Position numbers and translations under genes: made by a program
Shown here: positions 49,906 to 64,000 of the stretch, piece by piece
Layout: each line of letters opens with the position of its first letter
Numbering within the stretch: the first letter of the stretch is position 1
Assembly (NCBI GenBank): GCA_050273025.1
Contig: CP158635.1
Span: 14,322,001-14,386,000, forward strand
DNA from: Cenococcum geophilum
Taxonomy: Eukaryota
DNA: 64,000 nucleotides
Direction: 5' to 3'
The notes under the pieces: model-generated
Databases searched by the model: none
Told to the model about the DNA's origin: nothing
What the model saw: the letters and a program-made list of their open reading frames with translations, nothing else

Positions 49906-52900
49906 ATGGGTCCACCATCGCGACCTGATCACCACATCAACCTCAACTACCTCCCTCAGCTTGTCTCGCAGCCGCCTCGTTCCGGCTCCTCAACAGCTGC
50001 AACATCACCAATCGAGCCGCCTTCCAGTAGCTCTGTCCGATTTCCCTTAGGAAGCGGTAATAACCCGAATGGACTCGGAAACGCCGCTGCAGGTGTACGT
50101 TTAGGAGCTGGTTCACCTTCGCATGAATTTGGGAGCAGACTGTACTCAAAACGGTTCGTCGCATGATGAAACAGAAATTTGATAGGATATTAATTGACAG
50201 TGTAAATTAGCGCCCGAGAGATCCAAGCGCAAGAGGGTCTTGGTCCACAACTCTGGGGACCTCCGACAAGCGGCAACTCCACCCCTCTTCGCGAAACCAT
50301 CCCAGAGTCGCCAAATGCCGACAGCTTTCCTGACTTTAATCAACCTGTCGCCGAGCCCACAACTACCCAAACTTCCACTCGGAGAGCTCGAGCTGGGACC
50401 TTACCTTCACGATTCTCTCCTGCTGGAGCACCTACTGGACTCATGCCGCAGTCTTCGCTTCTTCCTAAGACATCCCGTCCCACTCCATCCACAAGTCCAT
50501 TCAAACCAGGACCCGGCACTCCGACCGAAAGCTCTGCATTCGGATCTAACAATTCAGCAGCCGCAAAATCAGCTCTCCTTTCGCGGCTCAGGGCAGGCTC
50601 GATGCCACAACGTGCAACCCTCCTCCCTACTACATCGTCTCCGTTCGGTTCCTCTATCTTCTCGTCAAACTGGGCAAGCAGTCGAGACCGAACCAGTACT
50701 TTGCACAGCATTCAATCGTCCAATGGACCGACTTCTCCGGCCCATTCCTCATTTTCTCGGGATTCGCTTGCTGACACGGATGTGAAAACTCTTGATTACC
50801 TTGGTCTCGTGGACACACCTCAGCCCTCCCGGGCTACACTAGCACCTTCCGATATTGAATTACTTTTAGAAGGTCAAAGAAATGCTTTTAATCAGAACGA
50901 TCTCGCCGCTTTGACTCGAAACGCCAACCGATTCCGATCATATTCAGTTAACGCCAAAGAGAAGTATGCTGAAGACGACGATGAGTTGGACCAAATGGGC
51001 GGCTATGCTAGCAATTATAGCGGAACTTTAACCCCTTCCGCCGACGCCGCTGCGTATGCTATCCACGAGGCAGTCAGACAGCACAACCTTGAGGTTCAGG
51101 CTTTCGCAAACTTTGCCAGTGCCAGCCGTCCTCGAGCTAGAACAGCGGGAGTTCTCGACTCTCCATCAACAAGACTTATGCGAAACTATCTACCTACCTC
51201 TTCTAGACTTGATAGCAGTATTACGGCTTCGGAGTTGCCACTGAATGAGGAGGCCGAATACAATGGCCTTGCAGAGGCTGTGCAAGGCATGCAACTTAAT
51301 GGAAAGCCCAGCACCAACATGGGAGGTGATGACAACAACTTGGAGGGCCCAACAAGGGCTTTATGGCTTGGAAACATTCCTTCGTCTACTACGGTCTCGT
51401 CACTAAATGTTATTTTCAACACTTTCGGTTCAATTGAGTCTACCAGAGTTCTGACTCATAAGAACTGCGGATTTGTCAACTTTGAGAACCTGGACAGCGC
51501 CGTGCAGGCAAAATCTCAGCTGAACGGCAAGGAGATCTTTCCTGGAGCCGGCCCCGTACGGATAGGATATGCCAAGGTACCAAGTGCGTCGGCGACTCCC
51601 GGAAATAACGGTCTTTTCCCCTCACCAAGCCCTGACCCTCTTGCTAAAGGCCAAACGGAAGGAAGTGCAGCAAGTCTAAGTAACGGTAATCCTCGTCAAG
51701 CAAACGGAGCGCGAGCAGAAACAGCAACTGTGCCACTGAAGACCCCGGAGCTCCCGGACATTCGCGGAGACATTGTGCAGATTGTCAAAGATCTTGGTGC
51801 AAGTGACGAAGAGCAGATGAGAATTGCTACGCAAGTTGAGCAAGCTATTCAGAATGATAACTACGAGGATGAGATTCCTTCCATCGAAGAACCAAGCCAC
51901 AGCCGTGTCCACGATGCACCAAGATTGAGGGAAATCCGTAAGAGGATTGACAACAACTCTTGCTCGCAGGCTGAAATTGAGGACATTGCTATGAACATGC
52001 TACCGGAGATCGCTGAGCTTTCTTCGGACTACCTTGGAAATACCGTCGTTCAGAAACTGTTCGAATACTGCTCAGAGAGCGTTAAGGAGGCCATGCTTGC
52101 AGAGATTGCTCCTCACCTTGCCAAGATTGGTGTCCACAAGAACGGAACTTGGGCCGCCCAGAAAATAATCGACGTTGCTAGGTCGCCGGCCTTGATGAGC
52201 ATGGTTGTTAATAGTCTTCGACCATACGGTATGCCTCTGTTCCTTGACCAATTCGGGAACTATGTCATGCAAGGATGTTTGAGATATCAATTTCCGCTGA
52301 ACAACTTCATCTTCGAGGTCATGCTTAGTCGTCTCTGGGACCTTGCTCAAGGAAGATTCGGTGCAAGAGCTATGCGAGCTTGCTTAGAGAGTCACTACGC
52401 TACCAAAGACCAGCAGCGCATGGTTGCTGCAACGATTGCTCTCCACAGTGTCCAGCTAGCCACTAATGCTAACGGTGCGCTGTTACTCACCTGGTTCCTT
52501 GATACCTGCACTTTCCCGCGTAGACGCACGGTTTTGGCACCTCGCCTTGTTCCTCATCTAGTCCACTTATGTACGCATAAGGTTGCATATCTGACCGTTC
52601 TCAAAATCATTAATCAGCGAAATGAACCAGAAGCACGCGACACAATCCTACAGGCTCTATTCTTCTCACCGAACGACCAAGTTCTCGAAGACATCCTCAG
52701 CGACCAGAGCTGTGGAGCCACCCTTATCTTTAAGGTCCTGACTACTCCATTTTTCGATGAGAAGATCCGAGCCGATGTTGTTCAGAATGTCAGAAATGTG
52801 TTGCTTCGCATCAAAGCCCAGCCAGCTCAGGGATACAAACGCCTGATGGATGAAGTTAATCTTTCAACTCGCGGCGGCGGACCTGTCGCGCGGGAGAACC

Positions 52901-53517
52901 ATCGCGAGCCTTCTGAAGGTTCTCGACCTGGATCAAAGCAAAGCCCAGCGAGCGGTCAGCAAGCGCATAACAATATGGAAAATCAGATTAATAGACAATT
53001 CTACCAAGGCATTCCACCGCCTGCTTTCGATCCAATGGCTCTACAGCGTACTGGCAGCATGGATTCTAACGGCTTCGACCAATATCCGCTCAATGGCATC
53101 AACCAACCTGTTTTCCCGCAAAACTCGAACATGCCGCTAGCAGCAATGGCATCCCAGCAAGCTCAATTACAGTATCACCAAGCTGCTCTTGCTGCATCGA
53201 GACCTAACAATTTCTATCCACTTATGAACGGTTTTCAAAACGCAGCCCCGGCTCTGGATGCGTTCAGGAACGTCTCACCCATAGCAGCGCCGGGCATGAC
53301 AGGCTCGCCGATGCTGCAGCAAGCTGGCTTCGGGCAAGGGATTGGGCCAGTTATGAGCCCACAAATTTATCCATATGGAATGTATATGCCACAACAACAA
53401 CAGCAGATAGCAGCGGGCCAACGGAGAGGAAGGGTCAGTACAGTGTTTCATACTACCACATATAACGTCAGGTGGACGGCCGAGAATTTAGCGGAGCTAA
53501 CCGAGAAATAGAGATAA
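49906..53517 (+). CDS. RRM + Pumilio-repeat RNA-binding protein (Jsn1/Puf2-like)
   Basis: KR|AREIQAQEG N-terminus, RRM (RALWLGNI...CGFVNF), PUF repeats (SDYLGNTVVQK, HKNGTWAAQK, DQFGNYVMQ); tiny last exon AGA TAA at 53512-53517. Confidence 0.92.
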
Positions 53518-55514
53518 ATCCTCTGAAAATGTTAGAAACGACGAATTTACACTCGCTTCTATTGTAAACTCTTGACTTTACACCTACAATTTCCTCGTTC
53601 GACTTTGAGCGATCACAAAGACCATTTTCCTGAGGCGTTTCTGGTTTGTGCTGGGGTCAAGACTATTTCAAATGTTGTAAATGATTGCTGAACTGTTATA
53701 CTCTCTGGTTGCTTATCTGCTGTTCGCACCAAACATTGTGGCTCTTCGAGGACCACTATCGCACCAAACCCATTTCCTTGCTAGTTCTAAATAGCTTGTA
53801 TCTCTGCATCTAACTCCCACCGTCCAATGTCTTCTCTCGTCAGAGTATGGCGTCGAAAAAAAGTTTGCAGGGGCACTGGTTGTCCCTGTACACCTTCAAC
53901 TACCGCAAATTTTTAAAACCTACCGCACTTTTGTATTTTTTGCTTATGTGTTTAGTCATTCGCTGCCAGCTTTCGGAGTTACTGTGAACCAGGGAGAAAG
54001 AAGGGGAGCAGGTTTGCCTTTTCATTACGATACGCCTCTCTCCTTTTCTCTCTTGCTGCCACGGCATCTTCTTTCCGCTCGTTTTCTCAACATGCACGCG
54101 CAAGGTTGGATATGGTTCGGCGCGCCCGTTCTTTTCCTCCTTACACTTCTTGTATCCTACATTTGCTCACACTCTTTTTCTCTCTGGATGGTCGGGATGA
54201 CGGGTGATTGGTATTTGGGCGGAATCACTTCAAAATGGGATTTGCCTTTGCGTCTTTGTGTTTGCTTTCGCGCTTTTTGAGCTAGGGGCAAATTTGGGGG
54301 AAAGGGTTTCAAGAGCGGGTTGGAGGATTTAGGCAAGTGGGAAGGGCGGAGAGTGAAGGGTAGGATATTAAGGTAGGATGGGTTTAGATTCTTTTGGGAA
54401 TTCGAGAAAAATTCAATTGAATTGTATTTTCTGGGTTTTAATGGGTTTTGGTGTTGTGAATGTGGTTTGCTGCAGTTTGGCATTGCATTAGCAAGTTCTC
54501 GCAAGCCTGTCACATCACTCGCTGCTGCAAGCCTTTCATGTTGGGTTTGGTATGTCGTCATTTTAAGACCCGAGCAGGTTCATATACTCAGCTGACCAGC
54601 TGGCTTCTCAGGGCTTGACAGTATGCTAGAATTCTGAGCCGTCAACCTCCACCCACTGATAAAGCGGCAAGAGGCCCGCATGGCCCGTCCTGGAAAGATT
54701 TTGTCACTGCTAGTTCGCCGCTATATGCCTTGGAATATTAGCAAGAACTTAGTGATCATCGTTATTAAATATTGGAGATCATCTTGTCATGGCGTTGGGA
54801 TAGTTGATAAGCGTTAGTTATTGTCATTACACGGTCCGCGGCGGGACTCCAGTACGCCATTCCCAAGCCGCGAGAAGGGCTCAATGCACACGAGCTTACT
54901 ATCTTAAAACCAGAGGGTCATGCTTGATAAAATTAGTCAATTTTATGAGAAGTACGATATCCTCAACCCCAGAGAGTAGTCTTGAAGACTCAAAGCCTAC
55001 CGGTGCCTAGAAAATTGCAGCTGTAAGGGCTAACTGATTGGTCTACATCATCTAGTTTATACACCCAGCTGCACTGCATATTAGCCGTGCCTCTATTAGA
55101 GCCTATATGTTGTGCGCAAATGCATTGGTATCTCACAGAAATGTGCAGCCGTGACCCCGTCCCACCGTGTCTACTGACTCCCACCCCGCGACCGAATATG
55201 AGCATGATAAACCAACGAGTCCCACGATCGATAAAAGTTGGTCATCAAAAAGGCTTTGGCCTCTTGCCAAAATTACCAAAGGAAATTTATAAATGAAGAG
55301 TATCTGCGCGTTAAAATTAAGATTATGTGCCCAGAGATGAGGAGCTAAGCGTCCAGCTTTTGTCTATGGTATGATGCATTTGGCGAGAGAAGGTCACTTC
55401 TCATCGTCTGGATGGGAACGAGATACGCCATTGTCCTGTTAGGGCCCTGCTTGGTGGATATTGAACCATGGCTCGATGGCTCGTTCAAACAAACGGTTCA
55501 TCTATAATGGCAGG

Positions 55515-58500
55515 CTACTCCCTGGCTGAAACTGCACTCTGCCTTGCAGTAGTAGCGACAAGAGTGTCAGCAGAGTCTGTCGGATGCATTGACGACACTG
55601 AAAGGCCAGAGTAGCGGGTATAGTCGATTTCTTCGGACTCATCGAACTCTTCTACGAAACTGCCGAGCAACATCTTGTTGACATTGCCGGATGCTGGCTC
55701 GGTATCGACTATGTCGCTATAATCTCTGCTTAACTAAAGAGTGTCATTAGATTAAGTAAACGATGATGCTTACGGGATGCCCTCAAACTTTAACTCATCG
55801 TCCAATCGCCGGAGTCTGTAAGTGGCATCTACGTCGTACCCGAACTGGATGAACTCGATGCTCACTGGCCGAGGCTCGCTGTTTCTGAGGAATTTTTGAA
55901 CATCTTTTCCGAACTTCACAATTATTTTCTCAACGTCACGCTTATTTTTCATTCCCGCCCAAACACCGTCAGTAAGAACAATGATAGTGAGCTTCTTAGG
56001 CGATCCCTTAGACCGGTTCCGCTTTATTTCTTCAACCTGAGCGGATAATATCCTGTCAAGTGGTTTTTGCATATCAGTATGCATGCCGTCCTTAGGTTGA
56101 ACTTCAGAATTCTCCATAGCACGCCAAAAGTCAGAGCCAGTCTTTTTGTTGTTGAGTTCTGATCGCCCAATGGTAAAACTAAGATCCATCCCGTTCTCGT
56201 CTTGGCCAGCAGCTTTCATTACGAGAGTCTCGAGAAGATAACTTGCATGATACCAATGGGGTCTCATCGTTTCGGCATTGTCAACGAGGAATTTCTTTGG
56301 CGGATTAGTAAGACCACAAACATATCACTTAAAGCACTGAACTCACAAGATCCCTTTTTCCATCGGAAAAATATTGAGTGAGTAATTTATCTTTCCTCGT
56401 TCGTTTCAGAATGTTGCCCTTCTCACGCCTCCTAATTTCTTCGCGTGCCTGCCAGACGTCCTGCACGTCAGTTTTTCTTTGTGTCCTGTGTATAGGGTGT
56501 GTGAAACTGATAGCAGAATCACGTTGTCGGGTAGTGCTAGTAGATTTCAGTGCAGATTTAAGATACTCAGAGCGATGAGTTGTCTTCATCAGTGGAAGAT
56601 TAAGGAGCTTCGATTTGCGGCTTTTTCCTCCCTGAGTGGCAATGGGTGATTGACTTGCGCTCGAACGTCTACGTGAGTTGGTTTCCGGAGCCTTCCAAGG
56701 AGCTTCCTCAGCCTTCCAAGGAGCCTCCTCATCCACTTCAAGTAACGCTTGCATGATGCTTTCCGAGAGTGGTCTGTGAGATGTTGCTCCAGCACGAGTA
56801 TCGTCTGAGATCCTCATCAACTCGTTGCAGAGACTTTTAGAGTTGATTCTTTCCCGCGGGTCTTCCAATAGCATCTTTCCATCAACTAGATCAAGCACCC
56901 GATTGGTAATTGTGTCTGTTATGCGTAAAGAACCACGCAACATCTTGTGCCAGCCAATCACATCCTCTAGAACCCTTTTTCCATTATGGAAGTAGTCGCC
57001 TTGAGTGAGAACCGGAGGAGTTTGATTCTTTGCAATGATTTTCTCGATTGCAATTTCTCGCATTCTACGATACTGACGTATGCCCTGATATCCTAGGACT
57101 ACCCATGTGGCAGCTATTGAGAGTACGCAGCCCAGTGACCAGATGTCGATAGTTTGACGGACAGCGACCTTGGTTTCTATTGTCCCGGGGTGGCGTTCGG
57201 GAGCGCCTGATCAGGAATAAGTCAACCTTGAATTATGTGCTGATATAGGAGAGTAGCATGGTGGGTTACCAAACGTCTCCGTCCCTCCATCCAAATGCAC
57301 TATTGGGTCTTTGTCTGTTTTTTTTATGAATTTGGCAAACCCAGGATCGCACAATTTGAATTTCCCTTGTACGCTGAGAATATTGTCCGGCTTGATGTCG
57401 GCGTGCCACCTGTATTTGTTAGATATATAGCCAAAAAGTATGCACGGCTCCATACCCATGATATTCCCGAGTCATCCCATCTGTAGTGATTGTTAGGTTA
57501 TGGATGCCATCAACTGCATTTGCGACCTGAAACAAAGCCGTCCAAAAATCTTCAACTTCGTTTCGAAGTACCGGTGGCAGTCGTTCCGCAAAAAACTCAT
57601 CGAGATCGAATTCTCCAAATTCGAGGAGAATATTTAGCGTGGTCTTACAAGAATCCTTTGGTTCCTCTGCTGCTCTAACCCCTGGCTCCTGGCGGGTTGA
57701 AGATGTCGTAATCTCTGGATGTTCGTAATCACCCAAGTATCTCACCATGCCGTTATGCTCTCGCAAACCAGAGAATGCTACCCTCTCGTTCCTGTACAAA
57801 TTCGTGTTGATCGCTTCAAAAGTCTTCAAAGCAAATTGATAGCACTATTGGGGTATATCGGGAATGTCAGTGTCTATGTCATGATGAGGAAGGGTGCGAG
57901 ATAAGGAGATTTAGGACGGGGCTGAGCTTGCTGGCCGAGGACTTACATCACCGAAATTTTCATCTGAGAACTTTGCGCTCAGTGCTGCGTTCCTTAGCTT
58001 AGGGCCAACAAACTCCTCCTGAACTTTTATCTGCCACAGCTTTGCTGTACCTCCTTTAGTATTGATCTCGTCTTTCCCGCAAATTGGCATGACCCTATCT
58101 CTGCCAAACTCCCGGGACATACCCAGCTCGAGAATTGCTGGGCAAAAGCGCCACTGCATCTCATCAAATCTCATCGCCAGTTTGGGTGCGTTGGATACAG
58201 AAACATTCTTGAATTTTTGCTGAAGTAATGATCGGTTGATTGGGAGATGCACATCGAATTGGCCCCATCGCTGGAAGTGATCAACGAGATGGCCTAGGTC
58301 AAGCTTAAGTAAGATGCTGAAAATAATAAGGCAACAATTTTTCTCTGACTGTATTTGATGAGCTTCAGGGGGTAAGAATATAATTTTAGGTTGGTTGCGG
58401 TAATATGCGGCCCATAGAAGGATATTTGCTTGGGTTATTTCAGTTTCTGGTCTTTTGCTTTTGAGCCAATTCGTGAGCTGCCAGACGAGGACATAAAGCC

Positions 58501-58594
58501 GGCCACACTGTGCCTGCATTGTGTACTGTTCCAGCTTTGTCTTGAAATCGCGAATGGCAGATTCATATTGAACTTGAGGGTGAGTGAGAGACAT
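55515..58594 (-). CDS. Ser/Thr kinase-like domain fused to C-terminal vWA domain, 6 exons
   Basis: TKGGTAKLW, FALKTF, WHADIKPDNIL, KLCDPGFA, GGTETFG|APE, DIWSLGCV; vWA FLVDNAETM, LTIIVLTDG, SIEFIQFG, DIVDTE; canonical GT-AG introns and no stops seen. Confidence 0.85.
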
Positions 58595-59431
58595 AACGAG
58601 GAGATATGCATGGGTGTTGAAGCCTTTTCACGATGAGGCTCAGCTTTGTGGGTGATGGTCGCTGGGCTGAGCGGGGAAGGTTGATAATGAACCCTGGCTC
58701 AGGGTCTGCCATTCCTGTCGCCAATCCAGACCCCTGGGTTGCTCTGCTGATCAATCTGGGGTTTTAGAGCCGCTCATAGTAAACATCGCAGATCGCACAA
58801 TTTTATATCGGTCTTATAAAAGAAGCTGCAGTTCCTACCTTGCAATTCTTAAGCTATATTCCCGGTCTAGTAGGAAGATAAAGTTGAGATCTTTTACATC
58901 AGGGTCGGTGTTCCGCTTAAAAGCTTACCTTGGAACTAATGTTAGGGCATTGGCTTTTACGAACCTCAGTGTTCAGGCCGTCGGCGGGGAAGATATATCT
59001 CCGAGCATACCGTCAATTAGCGATTGTCTATTCAACACTCCTGAATTATTGTGTCTTGATGTCTTGAAAGCCTAGACTGTCTGAAATTGATCTGGCTCTG
59101 TGAGAGTGCTATAAGAGCGCCAAAAGGGTATGCACAAGCTGACGACATGATGTATGGAATTTATGTAGATCCATAGCCACTAAGGTCCCTTGGAATATAG
59201 AGCACCGTCTACTAAATCCACTAGTCTATTAGGACTCTTGCGAAACACCGGAATTCCGCACTATTGTCGTGAGACCTGGGCTTCTGATCGCGTAGTATCT
59301 ATACTATGGGAGGGAGGATAAGAAATGATATATATCACGACAAAATATAACGCTTGATGGGCTCGCTAGAACTTGGGTCGAATATTTATTGGATAAAATT
59401 ATATCCACTCCAGGAAAAACGTTCAATCAAT

Positions 59432-61331
59432 CTACGTTATGCTGGGCTTCGACTCTGACTCGTACCGCGGAAGTCTCTCTTCACAAGATATTTCGTGTTT
59501 GCGATTCTTATCCGCCCTTATAAACCAAATGTACCCAACACTCAGGGTCACTACGGTCAAGGGGAGGGCTACCTCCAGCCACCTTACCATTGCAATCTTA
59601 GAGAATGACCCCGTCCTGCTGTTTTGGTTCTGATATTTTACTACATCTGTGCTGAAAAATGTCTGCCGCTTATTCAGCGGGGGTTTAGGGCCGGAGTAGA
59701 AATTTGGCACTTACAGAGACAAAAGTTGCAGGAAGAAAAATCAAAGTGACTACGGTGATTATTCGCATCGCGACGGCTTCTTTCTGTGCCATGATTCCAA
59801 TATTGTGCATTTTTCGGGTAAGATCTTCCATACTTTCGGTTGCTTGACTCTGAAGGTGTTGCAGGATCTACAATAATAATCTTAGTATAAAAGATGCGTG
59901 ACTATTGTTGTAGCGTTGCAGAGGGTACGGGCTGCGTGCTTACAAGATTTTTGCGATCATCGATAATTTGTACGAGTAGTTTAGCGCGCGCTATTTGCAT
60001 TCTTGAATCATAGATCATATTATTCACTTGTGTGGCGAATTGCAGGATATCCTCCTCACAAGCCTCTTTCAGGTCGAAATTTTTGTTCTTTAGTAAGTTC
60101 TCGTAGAATTTGCGAAGAGATATGAGCACATCCATGTTAGCTTCTAAGACCATAACTACTTCATTTGTTTTGTCTTCGTAGTCTTGCACTGCCTGAAGAT
60201 CATCTGGACGGTATTCCCGTCGATGCTCGCCCATGCCACGTGGACCCCATACTGCGATATGTGTCTGAGGCAGGTTTATTAGTATTTGTATAGTCACTAA
60301 GTTTGCGCTTGGGTTTTCTTTACCTCGTTATCTACTACGTCCTCTAACCATTGGACATACCAGCGCCAGTCTTCGGTTGACCAGTGTGAGTTTAGCAGGT
60401 GCACTGCTAAGCTAGACTTAAAGCATTCTGCTGGTGTCCCGAAGGATTTGTCTTCCGGCCTCCCATCTTTACCCGTCATATCTTGAATCCGTTTCTTTAT
60501 TTCCAAATTGCCTTTCGTGACTATCCAGAGAGTTGTTCCTTCATCCACATCAAATTGATGATGGAAAGCTGCCTGCCGAATAGACCACTCTTTATTCTTC
60601 GTAGGAGTACTAGGTGAGAGGCAGCTAACAGTCTTGAGATTGTAGCAAAGCTGGAACTGCCGTCCACTTCTGCCCAAGGCAGGAACTGATTGTCTGCGAG
60701 CAGAATTACTCAACAGCGTTTGCTCGCGAAAGCCACTGAATCGCAGGTCCCGCGGCAGGTTCTGGGCACCAAAAACAGAGATGAAGTCGAGATATCCGGG
60801 CATGACTTGATGATAACTTAGAATTCGGACAAGCATCCTTCGGGTTATTTTGAGGGACGCTCGCGAGTGTGCCGCCCATAGGAAGCTGTATGATAACCTT
60901 TTGTTAGCACAACTGCTGTTCGAATTGAGATCTACCGGTTTCCCTCACATGAAGCGACATTTCGGGTCAACTTTCGTTGCTACAGATCCCGGGCTATTTG
61001 GGTCCGTGGTTGACTGATCCCCTAGCCATTCCTTCAGAGCCGCATCGCTCAATATGTTTTGTTTTTTGAAAGCTTTATAGGTAAGTAGATGGGTTGAAGT
61101 GACCAGAGGCGAGGACTTACGGGCGCCTTGACCCGTAGGTCGGAAATCCCGAAATGGAACATCTGCATCTGTATCCTTTTCTACCAATAGCTTCGGCACC
61201 GCAGTGTCAAGTCGAGATGTGTATGCCTGGAGGGCGCCGAGATATGAAGCTCGATAGACAAGATTTTGGGGGTAGGACACGCTGTTCTCGTAGGAGAACT
61301 GAAAGTCTGCGGGAAGTTGCAGAGTACCCAT
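59432..61331 (-). CDS. Fungal CorA-like protein with two C-terminal TM helices, multi-exon
   Basis: HSRASLKIT...SYHQVMPGYLDFISVFG, WSIRQAAFHHQFD, long helical stalk, then AMRIITVVTLIFLPATFVS|TFFST and WLEVALPLTVVTL. Confidence 0.8.
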
Positions 61332-61615
61332 AGTTCACCTGTGGGCTCGTGCGTAACCAAAGATGCGTGTTAGTTGTTGATTTCGTGCTGATATGGGTAC
61401 ACTGGGGAGTCGAAAGAGTACATATAATCGTGGATTTATGAGATGTAAGGCACAAGAATATTGGATTTGCCCTGCCACAACGAGGCTGTGGTAGTGTAGT
61501 AGGCTTCGATTTGAAACCCTCGCAGCCAGCAACAAGGTTACACACAACAGGAGAGTTATTCTGAATTCGACGCCTTATGTCATGGCGGATTTTATTGCAT
61601 GTCTAAAATCATTGG

Positions 61616-62151
61616 CTAATATAGTTCCGGTGAATCTGCTCGACGTGGCTGCTCATTTGGATCCTCATCTCGCTCATTCGCAATCTCGTCTCTGTCCGCC
61701 TTATATAACCACTTGGTAAGCAACACTTGGTCGTGGAAGTGCTATTGGGATATAAATGGAAATTATTGGGGCTACCTACAGATTTCAGTGACTCGGGTAT
61801 ATTAAAAATATACTTGTCTCCAATCACCTAAGCAGAAAGAAGTCGTGTCAGTCCCATGTACAAGTACAACAGATAATGCGGGTTGCAAGGTTGCTGGGTG
61901 GGGCAACATACGCGGCGCTCTTTGAAGGTATGATCCGGGAACTTTCTTTCCAGAAACGCCTTGAGTTTCTCCCACTTTAGTCTATATGTGGGATACGAAT
62001 CCTGCCTCAGAAGTTTCGGCGGCTGTTGGGATTTCTCGGCCTGAGTTTTATAATTTGTAACCTTGCGCCTCGGGTTTCCACATTTGAGCATTGAAGAATT
62101 GCGAGAACTGTTCGTCGAGACAGTATCACTTCGAGATACTGGTGAATACAT
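61616..62151 (-). CDS. Small uncharacterised protein (~125 aa), 3 exons
   Basis: Splicing at GTATGT (61911)/AG (61828) and GTAGGT/AG gives ...LKWEKLKAFLERKFPDHTFKERR|VIGDKYIFNIPESLKS|ADRDEIANER...LY*. Confidence 0.65.
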
Positions 62152-63492
62152 GGGTCCGGAGTCAATAGGCGTTGCTCTTGGGACTGGGAAGTGGGCTGCA
62201 AAGGGATGGTAAAGTTTCCGTCTCGCTTTTCAGGCTGATCGAAAAGCATTGACTCAGAATTTGAAGAGAGGACTCATAGTTCACGACTGCGTGGGAGGCC
62301 TCCTATCTTAGGCATTTGTATGGGTTCATCAGGCTGAGGGAAATAAGGCAACGGCTTCAGCCTTCTGTGCCGGTGACTCCAGCTCGGCCGAATTGATTGG
62401 CGGGGAGAGAACCTCAATGCAACATTTGGGGCGGCAGTCGTCCTGTTCATAATGTTAGCCGATCGGGCCTAATGGGAACGAATACCAAATACTCTCTAGC
62501 CTTATTCGACCTTTGTAATATTCGCCCTTGGGCGCATGTTTTAGAATACACGAGATAAAAATTTTGAGGCATGTTATACGAGGCTAAGATGCTTAGAGCA
62601 GGGCAGCTCAAACCTCTAGAGCAGATAACCTTTTTCGTTGATGTCGTGTCTAAGTATTCTATCATTCCTAAAAGAGTGTGAGGTGATAAACACTCACGCT
62701 AATTGAGTAGCGCTTAGCTTTCCGATGCCCTGAAACTTGCAAACTCATTATACTGAAGGAACGCGCGGACAGACGAAGACGGGCGAGTTTGGCCACATAT
62801 TTTCCAGTCCAGACTACCCTATTAGATTGTCATTGATGTTTGAGATCTACCTCAAGAGTTATTTGATGGATTAGGGCCACGCCGTACTTTTAAACTCTGT
62901 AAATGGCTGTCAGACAGTTTTCTTCTAGCAAAGACTACTTCAGCCGCAACTATGTCACTTTCGTTGAGCTGCCATAATTGAGTTGTTTTCGTCGACATTT
63001 ATATTCCTGTGTCCTTTCATATGAGATTAGTTCGAATATCGCGAAGGAATGTGCGGTGTTTGTGCATGGTGGAGCTGGTAAATGGATCTAGCAATGAAAT
63101 CGAGGAATTTACCAAGTCCGCCAGGGTTAGAAATATAAGGGCTAGCGCTCAGTAATGCAACCATCGGCCTGCCATAAATTGTGCCATCAACTGTAACTAT
63201 TCAAACTCCGTCAACAATAAAGGGGGAAGGGGCGAAAAGGGATGAGTAATCCCCGTCTCGTCGTGTATTTGGCCTTGCGTCAATAAAAATATTGTGAATG
63301 TAACTTTAGATCCTGGCATGAAATGAGCAGAATGGCTCCAAGTATTTCAGAATGAGAAAGGAAAGCACTGTAGTTCTGAGGTAGGTCGATATATCATTCA
63401 GAAGCTTTGCCTCGTCCATGTAAGCCTAGTCTAGCTAAAGCTTTGTGTGCTGAACAATATGCTAGAATTCAGAGAAACCAATGATGATAAGT

Positions 63493-64000
63493 TTATCCTT
63501 CGCCACCATCAGCGCCATCTTCGGACTCTATTTCGTTCCACTTGTCTTGCTGTCTGCTTTTGCCCTTGTTGCTACCGATTGGATCTTGAGTAGCGGCGAT
63601 GCCGCTAGAAGTAAGGTAGAGAAATGTTGGTTCTTTGTAGTTGTCAATGTGCGTAAAAAGGGTGTTGAAACTATTGGATCTTTCAGTAAAAATTAAAGCT
63701 GTGGAGGCACTTCAATCATGGCTACTTACTGGTTTCCTTCCTCTTCCTCTCGGAAAATTCTCTCGTAGATCTCCCTCTGTTTGAATTCATTGATAACTTG
63801 TTCATACCTACTAAAATCAATATTCTCTCTTCCATGTCTCTCTGCTTGATGGGTGTTGTAGCTGTCGAAAACGGGCTGTTCCAGCAAGAGACCGAGACCG
63901 GGAACTCTCGGAATGCTCAAATTTACGTCTTCAAATGATTCTGTGATTCTGCTTGTTGGGCAGCCGCACCGTACTACCAGCGCAGCCATGCCGACCATCT
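63493..64000 (-). CDS. PUS1: tRNA pseudouridine synthase 1, 3' part (runs off the window)
   Basis: MVGMAALVVRCGCP...IPRVPGLGLLLEQPVFDSYN...FKQREIYERI; last exon ...HIDNYKEP...GGEG*. Confidence 0.88.

What the first reader, a model, noticed from the sequence alone, without database searches (positions are those of the whole stretch)
55515..62151. Intact co-oriented trio: small protein + GMN-less CorA-like membrane protein + kinase-vWA fusion (candidate fungal defence/cell-death module)
Seen: three compact minus-strand genes, with no stops or RIP damage noticed, lie between two housekeeping genes (JSN1/PUF2-like and PUS1); none is a core-pathway gene. Established: in bacteria, vWA and Ser/Thr kinase proteins act together in the TerY-phosphorylation triad (stress/anti-phage), and CorA-family proteins serve as membrane effectors of some type III CRISPR systems. 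Inference: this could be a sensor kinase (vWA), a membrane pore effector and a small substrate/inhibitor/adaptor, that is an operon-like innate-immunity or allorecognition module. I know of no functional description of it.
Basis: partly seen in the sequence, partly recalled or inferred. Interest (0 to 1): 0.85.

Follow-up and report, generated by a model that had tools for sequence, protein, structure and literature searches.

The report
Conserved fungal CorA–kinase–small-protein gene trio
Three neighbouring genes of the mycorrhizal fungus Cenococcum (a small protein, a magnesium-channel-like membrane protein that lacks the usual selectivity motif, and a kinase fused to a vWA domain) sit side by side in the same order in many distantly related moulds and lichen fungi, which marks them as an undescribed working unit.

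Summary
Window 55515-62151 (minus strand) carries three intact genes that are transcribed separately and spliced. RNA reads confirm all 12 introns. The genes are a 123-aa small protein, a 533-aa CorA-fold membrane protein with S-T-D in place of G-M-N, and a 919-aa protein made of an N-domain, a Ser/Thr kinase and a divergent vWA domain.

The main new result is that the trio is a conserved collinear cluster across Pezizomycotina. The evidence is adjacent locus tags and merged gene models in named genomes of Dothideo-, Leotio-, Lecanoro-, Sordario- and Lichinomycetes. In metagenome contigs anchored on the CorA-like gene:
- the kinase lies downstream on the same strand in 23 of 27 loci;
- the small gene lies upstream on the same strand in 27 of 32;
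- the full trio is present in 19 of 24.

The genes flanking the trio differ between lineages.

I read it as a kinase-regulated CorA-type cation channel, with the small protein as a phospho-regulated subunit. That mechanism is inferred, not shown. Strong purifying selection and the absence of any NLR, HET or HeLo domain argue for a signalling or ion-homeostasis role. Six literature searches found no description of it.

The parts
61616..62151 (-). Small-protein gene, CDS in 3 exons (62151-61912, 61827-61780, 61699-61616), 123 aa. It has a disordered basic Ser/Thr-rich N-terminus, a conserved ~60-aa core (Y.L.WE.L..FLE.KFP...F.E...D.Y.F..PE.L) and a C-terminal ..RRADSPELY tail.
   Evidence: Introns 61828-61911 and 61700-61779 are seen as RNA joints. 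The protein is 100% identical over exon 1 to the named C. geophilum protein P0173. The family has 90 representative clusters at E<=1e-3. Alignment A1.
59432..61331 (-). CorA-like gene, CDS in 6 exons (61331-61121, 61072-60949, 60885-60324, 60264-59944, 59867-59715, 59662-59432), 533 aa. It has a cytoplasmic alpha/beta domain, a long stalk helix and 2 C-terminal TM helices.
   Evidence: All 5 introns are seen as RNA joints. Matches P0054. AF2 pLDDT 85.9. Foldseek top hits are T. maritima CorA, E 5.4e-9, ~460 aligned columns. Pfam CorA 26.4 bits against a cut-off of 27. PF26616 is precomputed for it.
59645..59653 (-). Codons for S461-T462-D463, the motif that stands where CorA has G-M-N at the outer end of TM1.
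   Evidence: Read directly from the sequence. S461, T462 and D463 are >=90% conserved in 47 family members.
55515..58594 (-). Kinase-vWA gene, CDS in 6 exons (58594-57947, 57844-57456, 57409-57270, 57206-56347, 56294-55774, 55716-55515), 919 aa. It comprises an N-terminal helical domain (~aa 1-165), a protein kinase (~166-540), a disordered linker with a conserved PLMKTTHRSEYL motif, a vWA-like domain (~680-885) and an acidic/disordered tail.
   Evidence: All 5 introns are seen as RNA joints. No internal stop. Homologues of ~900-1050 aa carry Pkinase above the cut-off. Alignment A3. AF2 model of homologue P0002.
57346..57408 (-). Kinase catalytic core: W-H-A-D-I-K-P-D-N (catalytic Asp350 at 57399-57397) through D-P-G (Asp367 at 57348-57346, in place of DFG).
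   Evidence: H348, D350, K352, N355, D367, P368 and G369 are >=90% conserved. Codon numbering checked.
56268..56282 (-). MIDAS-position motif of the vWA-like domain: D-N-A-E-T, where the canonical motif is D-x-S-x-S (recalled).
   Evidence: Profile A4 aligns this stretch to the F-I-L-D-K-S-G-S stretch of the ANTXR1 vWA domain.
50443..53511 (+). Flanking PUF+RRM (JSN1/PUF-like) gene. Not part of the module.
   Evidence: Pfam PUF and RRM_1. Flanks are shared only with the near-identical locus L003.
63726..63998 (-). Flanking PUS1 gene (C-terminal part; it runs off the window). Not part of the module.
   Evidence: phmmer hit to yeast Pus1 7r9f, E 1.6e-23.

Best explanation
The three genes are one conserved functional module of filamentous ascomycetes. 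I read it as a CorA-fold, presumably pentameric, cation channel whose selectivity motif has changed from G-M-N to S-T-D. A dedicated soluble Ser/Thr kinase would control it, and that kinase carries its own vWA (metal- or ligand-binding) sensor or docking domain. The ~120-aa small protein would be the phospho-regulated third subunit: a substrate, adaptor or plug.

Shown:
- The genes are real, intact, expressed and spliced.
- The CorA fold is present and GMN is absent.
- The kinase keeps its catalytic residues.
- Order and orientation of the trio are conserved across classes in unrelated neighbourhoods.
- The CorA-like and kinase genes have diverged together.

Inferred:
- The kinase phosphorylates the small protein at its conserved C-terminal [RK][RK]..S.[ST]-P-E tail and/or N-terminal RRx[ST] sites, and/or the channel's cytoplasmic domain.
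- This gates ion flux.
- The vWA domain supplies the input signal or the docking.

My odds: the genes function together, about 0.8; this particular mechanism, about 0.4.
For: Reality of the genes:
- all introns are confirmed, and 22 synonymous against 12 non-synonymous differences with no stop were seen between strains.

Protein identities:
- CorA fold over ~460 aligned columns, E 5.4e-9.
- S-T-D is >=90% conserved in 47 members.
- Kinase motifs FALK, HAD..K..N, DPG and APE are conserved. Pkinase scores 50-62 bits on full-length homologues.
- The closest kinase folds are CMGC kinases: ERK2, CK2 alpha, CDK12.
- vWA: ANTXR1 vWA at E 0.007 with the MIDAS and LTDG stretches aligned; VWA_2 at 1.6e-5 on homologue P0043; alternating beta-alpha topology.

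Linkage in named genomes:
- Adjacent kinase/CorA-like locus tags in Peltula, Claussenomyces, Variospora fuerteventurae and Polycauliona.
- Small gene next to the CorA-like gene in Venturia nashicola (two assemblies) and Pseudogymnoascus 05NY08.
- Small and kinase genes two locus tags apart in Pseudogymnoascus 23342-1-I1 and Gyalolechia.
- Cosmosporella: small gene Fc.00g024510 next to a merged CorA-like+kinase-vWA model, Fc.00g024520.
- Further merged models show the same order: P0019, P0012, P0077, P0172.

Linkage in metagenome loci (70 distinct of 80):
- Kinase downstream on the same strand in 23 of 27.
- Small gene upstream on the same strand in 27 of 32.
- Full trio in 19 of 24.
- The vWA part is present in 14 of 15 loci with >=5 kb downstream.

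Other support:
- Flanks are not homologous between distinct loci.
- Pairwise divergences of the two large genes correlate: r 0.79 over 26 linked pairs, with 0 of 2000 permutations as high.
- Small-protein tail: [ST]PE in 24 of 39 family members and S-acidic in 6 more; R[RK]x1-3[ST] lies upstream of the core in 32 of 39. These site types fit a CMGC-like kinase. That link is inference, resting on recalled kinase specificities.
Against: - There is no direct evidence of binding or phosphorylation. The complex prediction could not be run, so that question stays open.
- 4 of 27 loci lack the downstream kinase. One of these has it upstream on the other strand, and one has transposase remnants there.
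- 5 of 32 loci lack a detectable small gene on the same strand upstream; one of them has a small-gene homologue there on the opposite strand.
- One relative (Cudoniella, P0081) has ankyrin repeats where the vWA should be.
- Several close CorA-like relatives (Endocarpon, Piccolia, Venturia) had no kinase-vWA in the list. That list is word-limited.
- Without GMN the protein may not be a channel at all.
- DFG reads DPG, and the window's MIDAS motif is degenerate (DNAET). The kinase or the metal site could therefore work atypically.
- Correlated divergence is expected of any two genes inherited together, so it does not by itself show interaction.
Confidence: 0.42

Rival explanations
1. Immune, allorecognition or regulated-cell-death module. 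The kinase-vWA senses a non-self or danger cue and opens the GMN-less CorA-like pore to depolarise or kill the cell. The small protein acts as inhibitor or guardee.
For: - The architecture resembles known death or defence logic. A CorA-family membrane effector is opened by a signal in type III CRISPR (PMC10600005, passages read).
- TerY-P-like modules (vWA, kinase, PP2C phosphatase) are reported there as stand-alone antiphage defence systems (PMC10542128, passages read).
- Kinase-vWA fusions confer rust resistance in wheat (PMC10260399, search listing and start of abstract only).
- Kinase-activated MLKL is described in a review of fungal cell death (PMC12881547, passages read).
- The family occurs in only some genera, with 1-3 copies and two deep clades mixing classes. 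That fits birth-and-death evolution.
- The trio sits in changing neighbourhoods.
Against: - No NACHT/NB-ARC, HET, HeLo/HELL, gasdermin, TIR or patatin domain was found in any of the three.
- PADLOC matches only the generic kinase core.
- Conservation is very high: the other CorA-like proteins of A2 are 42-66% identical to the Cenococcum one across classes.
- Between strains, 22 synonymous against 12 non-synonymous differences were seen. This is not the hypervariability typical of allorecognition loci.
- All three genes are expressed together at similar moderate depth in ordinary RNA libraries.
- No prokaryotic relative of the CorA-like protein was found.
Confidence: 0.2
2. Divalent-metal homeostasis or stress module. 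The vWA MIDAS site reports the cytosolic level of a metal (Mg, Mn, Zn, Co or Ca). The kinase relays this, and the CorA-like protein imports or exports that metal. This is a special case of the best explanation, with the input and the cargo named.
For: - CorA-superfamily members are divalent-cation transporters, and the whole fold is kept.
- vWA MIDAS sites bind divalent metals (established knowledge, recalled).
- TerY-P triads were predicted to be a metal-sensing phosphorylation switch (PMC10542128, passage citing Anantharaman 2012).
- A ring of five Asp (S-T-D) at the pore mouth could select a cation. This is inference.
- Conservation and steady expression fit a physiological role.
Against: - The first MIDAS serine is missing in the window copy (DNAET) and in many relatives.
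- Many well-studied fungi appear to lack the trio: none appeared in the lists, which are incomplete. It therefore cannot be core metal homeostasis.
- No metal-responsive expression data were examined.
Confidence: 0.2
3. The genes are co-located for regulatory or historical reasons only (shared chromatin domain, slow rearrangement) and have no functional or physical coupling.
For: - Three separate transcripts in run X19.
- No interaction was shown.
- Exceptions to the arrangement exist.
Against: - Order and orientation are kept across classes while the flanking genes are not. Passive synteny would keep the flanks too.
- Both deep clades of the family carry the trio. The cluster therefore seems to duplicate and persist as a unit.
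Confidence: 0.08

Closest known systems
CorA / Mrs2 / Alr1 / ZntB (CorA metal-ion-transporter superfamily, Pfam PF01544)
   Same: The whole fold is shared: a cytoplasmic alpha/beta domain, a long stalk helix and two C-terminal TM helices. Foldseek gives E 5.4e-9 to T. maritima CorA over ~460 columns. Pfam CorA matches the TM1 region.
   Different: G-M-N is replaced by a conserved S-T-D. The Pfam score of 26.4 bits is just under the cut-off of 27. A profile search of PDB sequences finds no CorA. The N-domain has its own Pfam family, PF26616 (precomputed). The gene is always flanked by a dedicated kinase and a small protein. Ion specificity is unknown.
CRISPR type III-B associated CorA effector (Bacteroides fragilis), opened by SAM-AMP
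   Same: A divergent CorA-family membrane protein used as the output of a signalling system (PMC10600005, passages read).
   Different: In the CRISPR protein only the C-terminal 172 aa resemble CorA, and the N-domain is a unique ligand-binding fold. Here the N-domain is CorA-like too. The input here is presumably a kinase, not a nucleotide. No prokaryotic relative was found, and there is no PADLOC hit.
TerY-P triad (TerY-like vWA + PP2C phosphatase + Ser/Thr kinase) of bacteria
   Same: It combines a vWA domain with a Ser/Thr kinase and was proposed to be a metal-sensing phospho-switch linked to stress and defence (PMC10542128, passages read).
   Different: Here vWA and kinase are fused in one eukaryotic-type protein. 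No PP2C gene belongs to the cluster, and no fourth conserved gene exists. The partners are a CorA-like channel and a small protein. Pfam vWA-TerF-like matches are marginal: 0.0072 on P0053 and 1 of 13 members.
Plant kinase-vWA fusion resistance proteins (wheat Lr9)
   Same: A protein kinase fused to a C-terminal vWA domain (PMC10260399, search listing and start of abstract only).
   Different: The plant proteins are tandem kinases and stand alone as immune receptors. No homology beyond the domain types was tested. No channel or small-protein partner is known to me (recalled).
RIPK3-MLKL necroptosis axis and fungal HeLo/HELL executioners
   Same: The logic is the same: a kinase activates a membrane-permeabilising protein (review PMC12881547, passages read).
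   Different: The membrane protein here is an integral CorA-fold protein, not a four-helix-bundle domain. The kinase N-domain is not a 4-helix bundle by predicted secondary structure and has no HeLo Pfam match.

Membership tests
CorA superfamily (PF01544) | Fold: N-terminal alpha/beta cytoplasmic domain, long stalk helix and two C-terminal TM helices | tested here: met
   AF2 model of P0054, pLDDT 85.9. Foldseek against PDB: T. maritima CorA chains on top, E 5.4e-9, probability 1.0, 450-484 aligned columns; 66 matches at E<=1e-3.
CorA superfamily (PF01544) | G-M-N signature at the outer end of TM1 | tested here: not met
   The sequence reads ..LPATFVSTFFSTDVVKYQ... S461, T462 and D463 are >=90% conserved in 47 members.
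CorA superfamily (PF01544) | Pfam model score at or above the gathering cut-off | tested here: not met
   P0054 scores 26.4 bits against a cut-off of 27, E 5.1e-6, over the TM1 region only. The precomputed table does list PF01544.24 for it. This is borderline.
CorA superfamily (PF01544) | Homopentamer that conducts divalent cations | not testable with these tools
Fungal 'CorA-like transporter domain' family (PF26616) | Match to PF26616 | tested here: met
   The precomputed Pfam column lists PF26616.1 for P0054 and for the listed relatives. The local Pfam copy gave no such hit, so it may lack the model. I could not rescore it.
Eukaryotic protein kinase (PF00069) | Catalytic residues: beta3 Lys, alphaC Glu, HxD..K..N loop, DFG Asp, APE | tested here: met
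   FALK, NE(K/R)xAF, WHADIKPDN, DPG (Asp kept, Phe changed to Pro) and GAPE are present. H348, D350, K352, N355, D367, G369 and E396 are >=90% conserved. Pkinase scores 50.7-62.5 bits on full-length homologues against a cut-off of 31.7. The window's single exons score 29.1 bits. The fold matches ERK2, CK2 and CDK12 at E ~1e-11 to 1e-10.
von Willebrand factor A domain (PF00092/PF13519) | Sequence match to vWA models or solved vWA domains | tested here: inconclusive
   VWA_2 at 25.9 bits against a cut-off of 27 on P0043; vWA-TerF-like at E 0.0072 on P0053. VWA_2, vWA-TerF-like and VWA each match in 1 of 13 members. The vWA-only profile A4 hits the ANTXR1 vWA at E 0.007. The window exon alone gives no vWA hit.
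von Willebrand factor A domain (PF00092/PF13519) | MIDAS motif D-x-S-x-S ... T ... D | tested here: inconclusive
   The window has D-N-A-E-T, so the first Ser is lost. Some relatives have the full D-N-S-x-S, while others have A or G at that position. TDM and LTDG are conserved. The canonical motif is recalled.
von Willebrand factor A domain (PF00092/PF13519) | Rossmann-like alternating beta-alpha fold | tested here: inconclusive
   DSSP of the P0002 model shows alternating strands and helices over residues 738-942 at pLDDT ~85-97.
TerY-P triad | Separate TerY-like vWA protein, PP2C phosphatase and Ser/Thr kinase in one operon | tested here: not met
   vWA and kinase are fused. No PP2C or any other fourth gene is shared by the flanks of distinct loci. 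The definition is taken from PMC10542128.
Fungal NLR / HET / HeLo / gasdermin cell-death systems | Presence of NACHT/NB-ARC, HET, HeLo/HELL or gasdermin domains | tested here: not met
   No such Pfam match was found in the window exons or in homologues P0002, P0006, P0019, P0054, P0055 and P0173.
Known prokaryotic anti-phage defence proteins (PADLOC-DB) | Specific match beyond a generic domain | tested here: not met
   Only kinase-core matches on P0002 (mad6 at 1.2e-11, PD-T4-6, Stk2). There was nothing for the CorA-like protein, the small protein, the vWA exon or the N-domain.

The most novel reading that the evidence does not exclude
The trio is an ancient, self-contained fungal signalling-to-membrane execution system. 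A sensor kinase, with its vWA domain as the input, phosphorylates a small guard or inhibitor protein. This opens a GMN-less CorA pore that collapses ion gradients. It would be a kinase-triggered stress or death switch that is kept, duplicated and relocated as a three-gene cassette. That would be a eukaryotic counterpart, by convergence, of signal-gated CorA effectors and of RIPK3-MLKL.
Probability: 0.2. Interest if true: 0.9.

Novelty: new variant of a known kind. Interest (0 to 1): 0.7.

Why it matters
To my knowledge, gene order in filamentous fungi is scrambled quickly, and clusters conserved across classes are nearly all metabolic. Here a non-metabolic cassette of three genes keeps its order and orientation across at least five classes while its surroundings change. 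The three are a channel-like protein, its own kinase and a previously unrecognised small-protein family. In several public gene models the small gene is mis-spliced or merged into its neighbour.

This gives a concrete, testable case of a kinase-coupled CorA-type channel in eukaryotes. It assigns a context to three families of 'hypothetical proteins' that are widespread in lichen fungi, plant-associated fungi and black yeasts. It also offers a natural experiment on what a CorA pore does once G-M-N is replaced by S-T-D. If the module proves to be a death or defence switch, it would add a new effector type to fungal immunity.

Tried and rejected
- Whole genome of the window: not held, so paralogues in the same genome could not be mapped.
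- Complex prediction (small protein with the CorA-like cytoplasmic domain): the queue was full, and the tool was withdrawn. Nothing was folded, so physical interaction is untested.
- ESM Atlas: no usable hit for the kinase N-domain. For the small protein only unnamed Ascomycota clusters at scores 0.81-0.84, which are leads only.
- Profile searches of PDB sequences: nothing for the small protein. Only an engineered protein for the CorA-like profile.
- Word-based search for the small protein found just 2 proteins and would have suggested an orphan. The full HMMER scan overturned that.
- Bacterial or archaeal origin: a pattern scan with the CorA-like alignment matched 147 stretches, none confirmed. 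I did not pursue this further.
- PADLOC and NCBIfam: only generic kinase matches.
- Earlier findings of this scan: nothing by place, by sequence or by words.
- Literature: searches (PF26616: 0 papers) found no paper on this module. One search failed on term syntax.
- I considered the small ORF as a 5' exon or uORF of the CorA-like gene. X19 depth drops to 0.33 between them, so I did not adopt that reading. It stays open, because Logan contigs of X1, X4 and X7 do join the two genes.
- I considered the kinase N-domain as a HeLo/4HB domain and rejected it. It has many short helices plus a hairpin and no Pfam match.
- My first splice guesses (55725 acceptor, 60897 acceptor, unspliced exon 1 of the CorA-like gene) were wrong and were corrected by RNA.

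Full report
**What is there.** ORF lists and the minus-strand sequence show three co-oriented, intron-containing genes between 55515 and 62151.

I laid one raw, stranded RNA-seq run and three metatranscriptome assemblies on 55000-62700 (runs chosen). All 12 introns appear as joints with CT..AC ends on the + strand, which is GT..AG on the minus strand.
- Kinase-vWA: 57845-57946, 57410-57455, 57207-57269, 56295-56346, 55717-55773.
- CorA-like: 61073-61120, 60886-60948, 60265-60323, 59868-59943, 59663-59714.
- Small gene: 61828-61911, 61700-79.

Support in X19 ranges from 53 reads (55716>55774) to 0 reads. The 57844>57947 joint is seen only in one contig in each of X1, X4 and X7. The 61698>61779 joint is seen in 1 read plus contigs of X4 and X7, not X1.

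RNA corrected three of my first splice guesses. Spliced by coordinates, the CDSs give 919, 533 and 123 aa with no internal stop.

X19 reads lie almost entirely with the first mate on +. Depth drops to 0.33 at 61425-61681 and to 0.02-0.67 at 58598-59111, so in that run the three genes are separate transcripts. In X1, X4 and X7 the small and CorA-like genes share one spliced contig, which does not prove a joint transcript.

The window is from Cenococcum geophilum or a very close strain. The CorA-like exon 2 is 99% identical to a named C. geophilum protein, and the small exon is 100% identical to another.

**What the proteins are.**

(i) CorA-like protein.
- An AF2 model of the Cenococcum protein P0054, built with 47 relatives, has pLDDT 85.9.
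- Its best PDB matches are Thermotoga CorA chains: E 5.4e-9, probability 1.0, about 460 aligned columns covering the cytoplasmic domain, the stalk and both TM helices.
- Sequence alone barely sees this. Pfam CorA scores 26.4 bits against a cut-off of 27, and a profile search of PDB finds no CorA.
- The precomputed Pfam table puts the N-domain in PF26616.
- Where CorA has Y-G-M-N-F the family has F-F-S-T-D, with S, T and D each >=90% conserved.

(ii) Kinase-vWA protein.
- In the alignment of 28 full-length relatives, FALK, the alphaC Glu, W-H-A-D-I-K-P-D-N, D-P-G (not DFG) and APE are conserved.
- Pkinase scores 50-62 bits on the relatives.
- The AF2 model of the closest relative, P0002 (52% identical), has four parts: a confident helical N-domain (9-150), a kinase (160-560), a disordered linker and an alternating beta-alpha domain (738-942).
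- Foldseek puts the CMGC kinases ERK2, CK2 alpha, CDK12 and ERK5 on top. A sequence profile puts TTK, CDK4/6, TBK1 and NEK7 on top.
- The C-terminal domain is a divergent vWA. VWA_2 scores 25.9 against a cut-off of 27 on one relative, and vWA-TerF-like gives E 0.0072 on another. A vWA-only profile hits the ANTXR1 vWA domain at E 0.007, aligning the MIDAS and LTDG stretches. Per-member Pfam hits occur in only 1 of 13.
- The window's MIDAS position reads D-N-A-E-T.

(iii) Small protein.
- A word-based search found 2 proteins. A full HMMER scan found 90 representative clusters at E<=1e-3, 10 of them at <=1e-10.
- The alignment shows three parts: a disordered basic Ser/Thr-rich N-terminus, a ~60-aa core (Y36 invariant; W40, L43, L47, P52, F56, D64, P71 and L74 at >=90%), and a C-terminal tail.
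- The tail carries [ST]-P-E in 24 of 39 members, S-acidic in 6 and neither in 9. Several of those 9 are visibly truncated or mis-spliced models.
- It has no Pfam, PDB, PADLOC or NCBIfam match.

**The trio is a conserved cassette.** This is the main result.

Named genomes:
- Kinase-vWA and CorA-like have adjacent locus tags in Peltula (M1816_005081/2), Claussenomyces (M1818_002194/3), Variospora fuerteventurae (Q9197_002763/2) and Polycauliona sp. 2 (Q9169_002521/2). They are three tags apart in Oculimacula.
- Small and CorA-like are adjacent in two Venturia nashicola assemblies and in Pseudogymnoascus 05NY08. They lie on one contig in Hypoxylon cercidicola.
- Small and kinase are two tags apart in Pseudogymnoascus 23342-1-I1 and Gyalolechia marmorata.
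- In Cosmosporella the small gene is the tag before a merged CorA-like+kinase-vWA model.
- Merged public models give the same order: small+CorA-like (P0077, P0172), CorA-like+kinase-vWA (P0019, P0012, P0126) and CorA-like+kinase+ankyrin (P0081).
- P0092 has the kinase first.
- P0171 carries the small-protein core motif at the N-terminus of a CorA-like paralogue. Whether that is a true fusion or a merged model is unknown.

Metagenome contigs, anchored on the CorA-like gene (80 loci, 70 distinct):
- With >=1500 bp downstream, 23 of 27 have a kinase homologue on the same strand (median gap 1075 bp).
- The four misses are L041 (kinase upstream on the opposite strand, with a ClpB-like gene downstream), L025 (transposase fragments downstream), L077 (a WD40 gene) and L054 (nothing recognised).
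- With >=1200 bp upstream, 27 of 32 have a small-protein homologue on the same strand (median gap 619 bp). One miss has it on the opposite strand.
- With both flanks adequate, 19 of 24 hold the full trio.
- The vWA part is present in 14 of 15 loci with >=5 kb downstream.

Other evidence on the cassette:
- Outside the trio, flanks of distinct loci share no homologous gene at tblastx 1e-10, apart from near-duplicates and one related pair.
- Divergences of the CorA-like and kinase genes correlate over 26 linked pairs: r 0.79, with 0 of 2000 permutations as high. This shows co-inheritance, not interaction.
- A FastTree of the 47 CorA-like proteins (no rows dropped, midpoint root) has two deep clades that each mix classes. 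Cenococcum groups with lichen and Leotiomycete sequences, away from the other Dothideomycetes except Patellaria. Both clades include trio-bearing members.
- The cassette therefore looks old, was duplicated as a unit, and has been retained patchily.

**Selection and expression.** Of the 40 best-supported differences between the window and the X19 strain (153 in all; 113 were not shown), 34 lie in the kinase-vWA CDS. Of these, 22 are synonymous, 12 non-synonymous and none a stop. The three genes have similar depth in X19, roughly 3-41 per bin within exons.

**How it most likely works.**
- Shown: a CorA fold without GMN; a kinase with an intact catalytic core; a vWA-like domain; a small protein with conserved Ser/Thr motifs; obligate-looking linkage.
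- Inferred: the kinase controls the channel, and the small protein is the phospho-regulated subunit or adaptor.
- The fit between a CMGC-like kinase fold and conserved S-P-E or S-acidic tails is suggestive only. It rests on recalled kinase specificities.
- Small+CorA-like pairs seem to occur without a detected kinase (L025, L077; Venturia and Endocarpon in word-limited lists). This hints that the small protein and the channel are the core pair.
- I give about 0.8 that the genes function together and about 0.4 for this mechanism.

**Rivals.**
- The immune or cell-death reading keeps its architectural appeal. It lacks any positive signal here and runs against the strong conservation.
- A metal-homeostasis version of the main explanation is equally open.
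- Pure coincidence is unlikely given.

**Novelty.** Full-text searches found no description of this module or of PF26616: and (0 papers for PF26616). Papers in subscription journals are not covered. Earlier notes of this scan hold nothing.

**Limits.**
- No whole genome was held.
- The vWA and N-domains could not be folded or searched on their own.
- The homologue lists are word-limited, so absences from them are weak evidence.

Noticed in passing
window 61616-61827: The public NCBI model of the small protein (P0173, 137 aa) uses a 38-nt intron that inserts ..HFHDQVLLTKWLYK... RNA instead supports an 80-nt intron (61700-61779), giving ..ESLKS|ADRDEIANE.. as in P0174. Contig X1 retains this intron.
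   Followed up: yes
window 55515-58594: No Cenococcum protein containing the vWA exon appeared in the 5.8-billion-protein search (best identity 55%, lengths 304-2000 aa). Yet the gene is expressed and fully spliced. It seems unannotated or truncated in the public Cenococcum gene sets.
   Followed up: partly
window 57845-57946: A minor alternative joint, 57854>57947 with AT..AC ends, appears in contigs of X4 and X7 beside the main GT..AG intron.
   Followed up: no
window 60545-60745: Logan contigs of X1, X4 and X7 match only this most conserved part of the CorA-like N-domain and then run on into unlike sequence at both ends. They are probably transcripts of a paralogue or of another fungus in the sample.
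   Followed up: no
window 61332-61615: In all three Logan metatranscriptome assemblies the small gene and the CorA-like gene lie on one spliced contig. Raw-read depth in X19 between them is 0.33. Read-through or overlapping UTRs are possible.
   Followed up: partly
P0121 (named C. geophilum protein, another 28.6-Mb contig): A second CorA-like paralogue exists in Cenococcum: 59% identical over exon 2, 438 aa. I could not check whether it has its own kinase and small gene.
   Followed up: no
P0171 (Oculimacula yallundae), residues ~60-130: The small-protein core motif (Y.LDW..L..WLE..F...F.E...DYFVF..P.ELTD) sits at the N-terminus of a CorA-like paralogue in one gene model. This is either a natural fusion or a merged annotation.
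   Followed up: partly
P0081 (Cudoniella acicularis): A merged model in which the kinase partner of the CorA-like gene carries ankyrin repeats (residues 1362-1485) where the vWA domain should be. The sensor or docking domain may be exchangeable. Locus L076 also lacks a detectable vWA part.
   Followed up: partly
L025:4631-5410: DDE transposase fragments (DDE_Tnp_1_7) lie directly downstream of a CorA-like gene, where the kinase is expected. The cassette is probably interrupted by a transposon.
   Followed up: partly
Alignment A3, linker columns (P0002 residues ~595-610): A short motif, P-L-M-K-T-(A/T)-H-R-S-E-x-L, is conserved in the otherwise disordered linker between the kinase and the vWA domain (T600 and R603 >=90%). 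Its function is unknown. It could be an autoregulatory or docking peptide.
   Followed up: no
L041:12167-14659: A ClpB/Hsp104-type double AAA+ gene lies downstream of the CorA-like gene in the one locus where the kinase sits upstream on the opposite strand.
   Followed up: no
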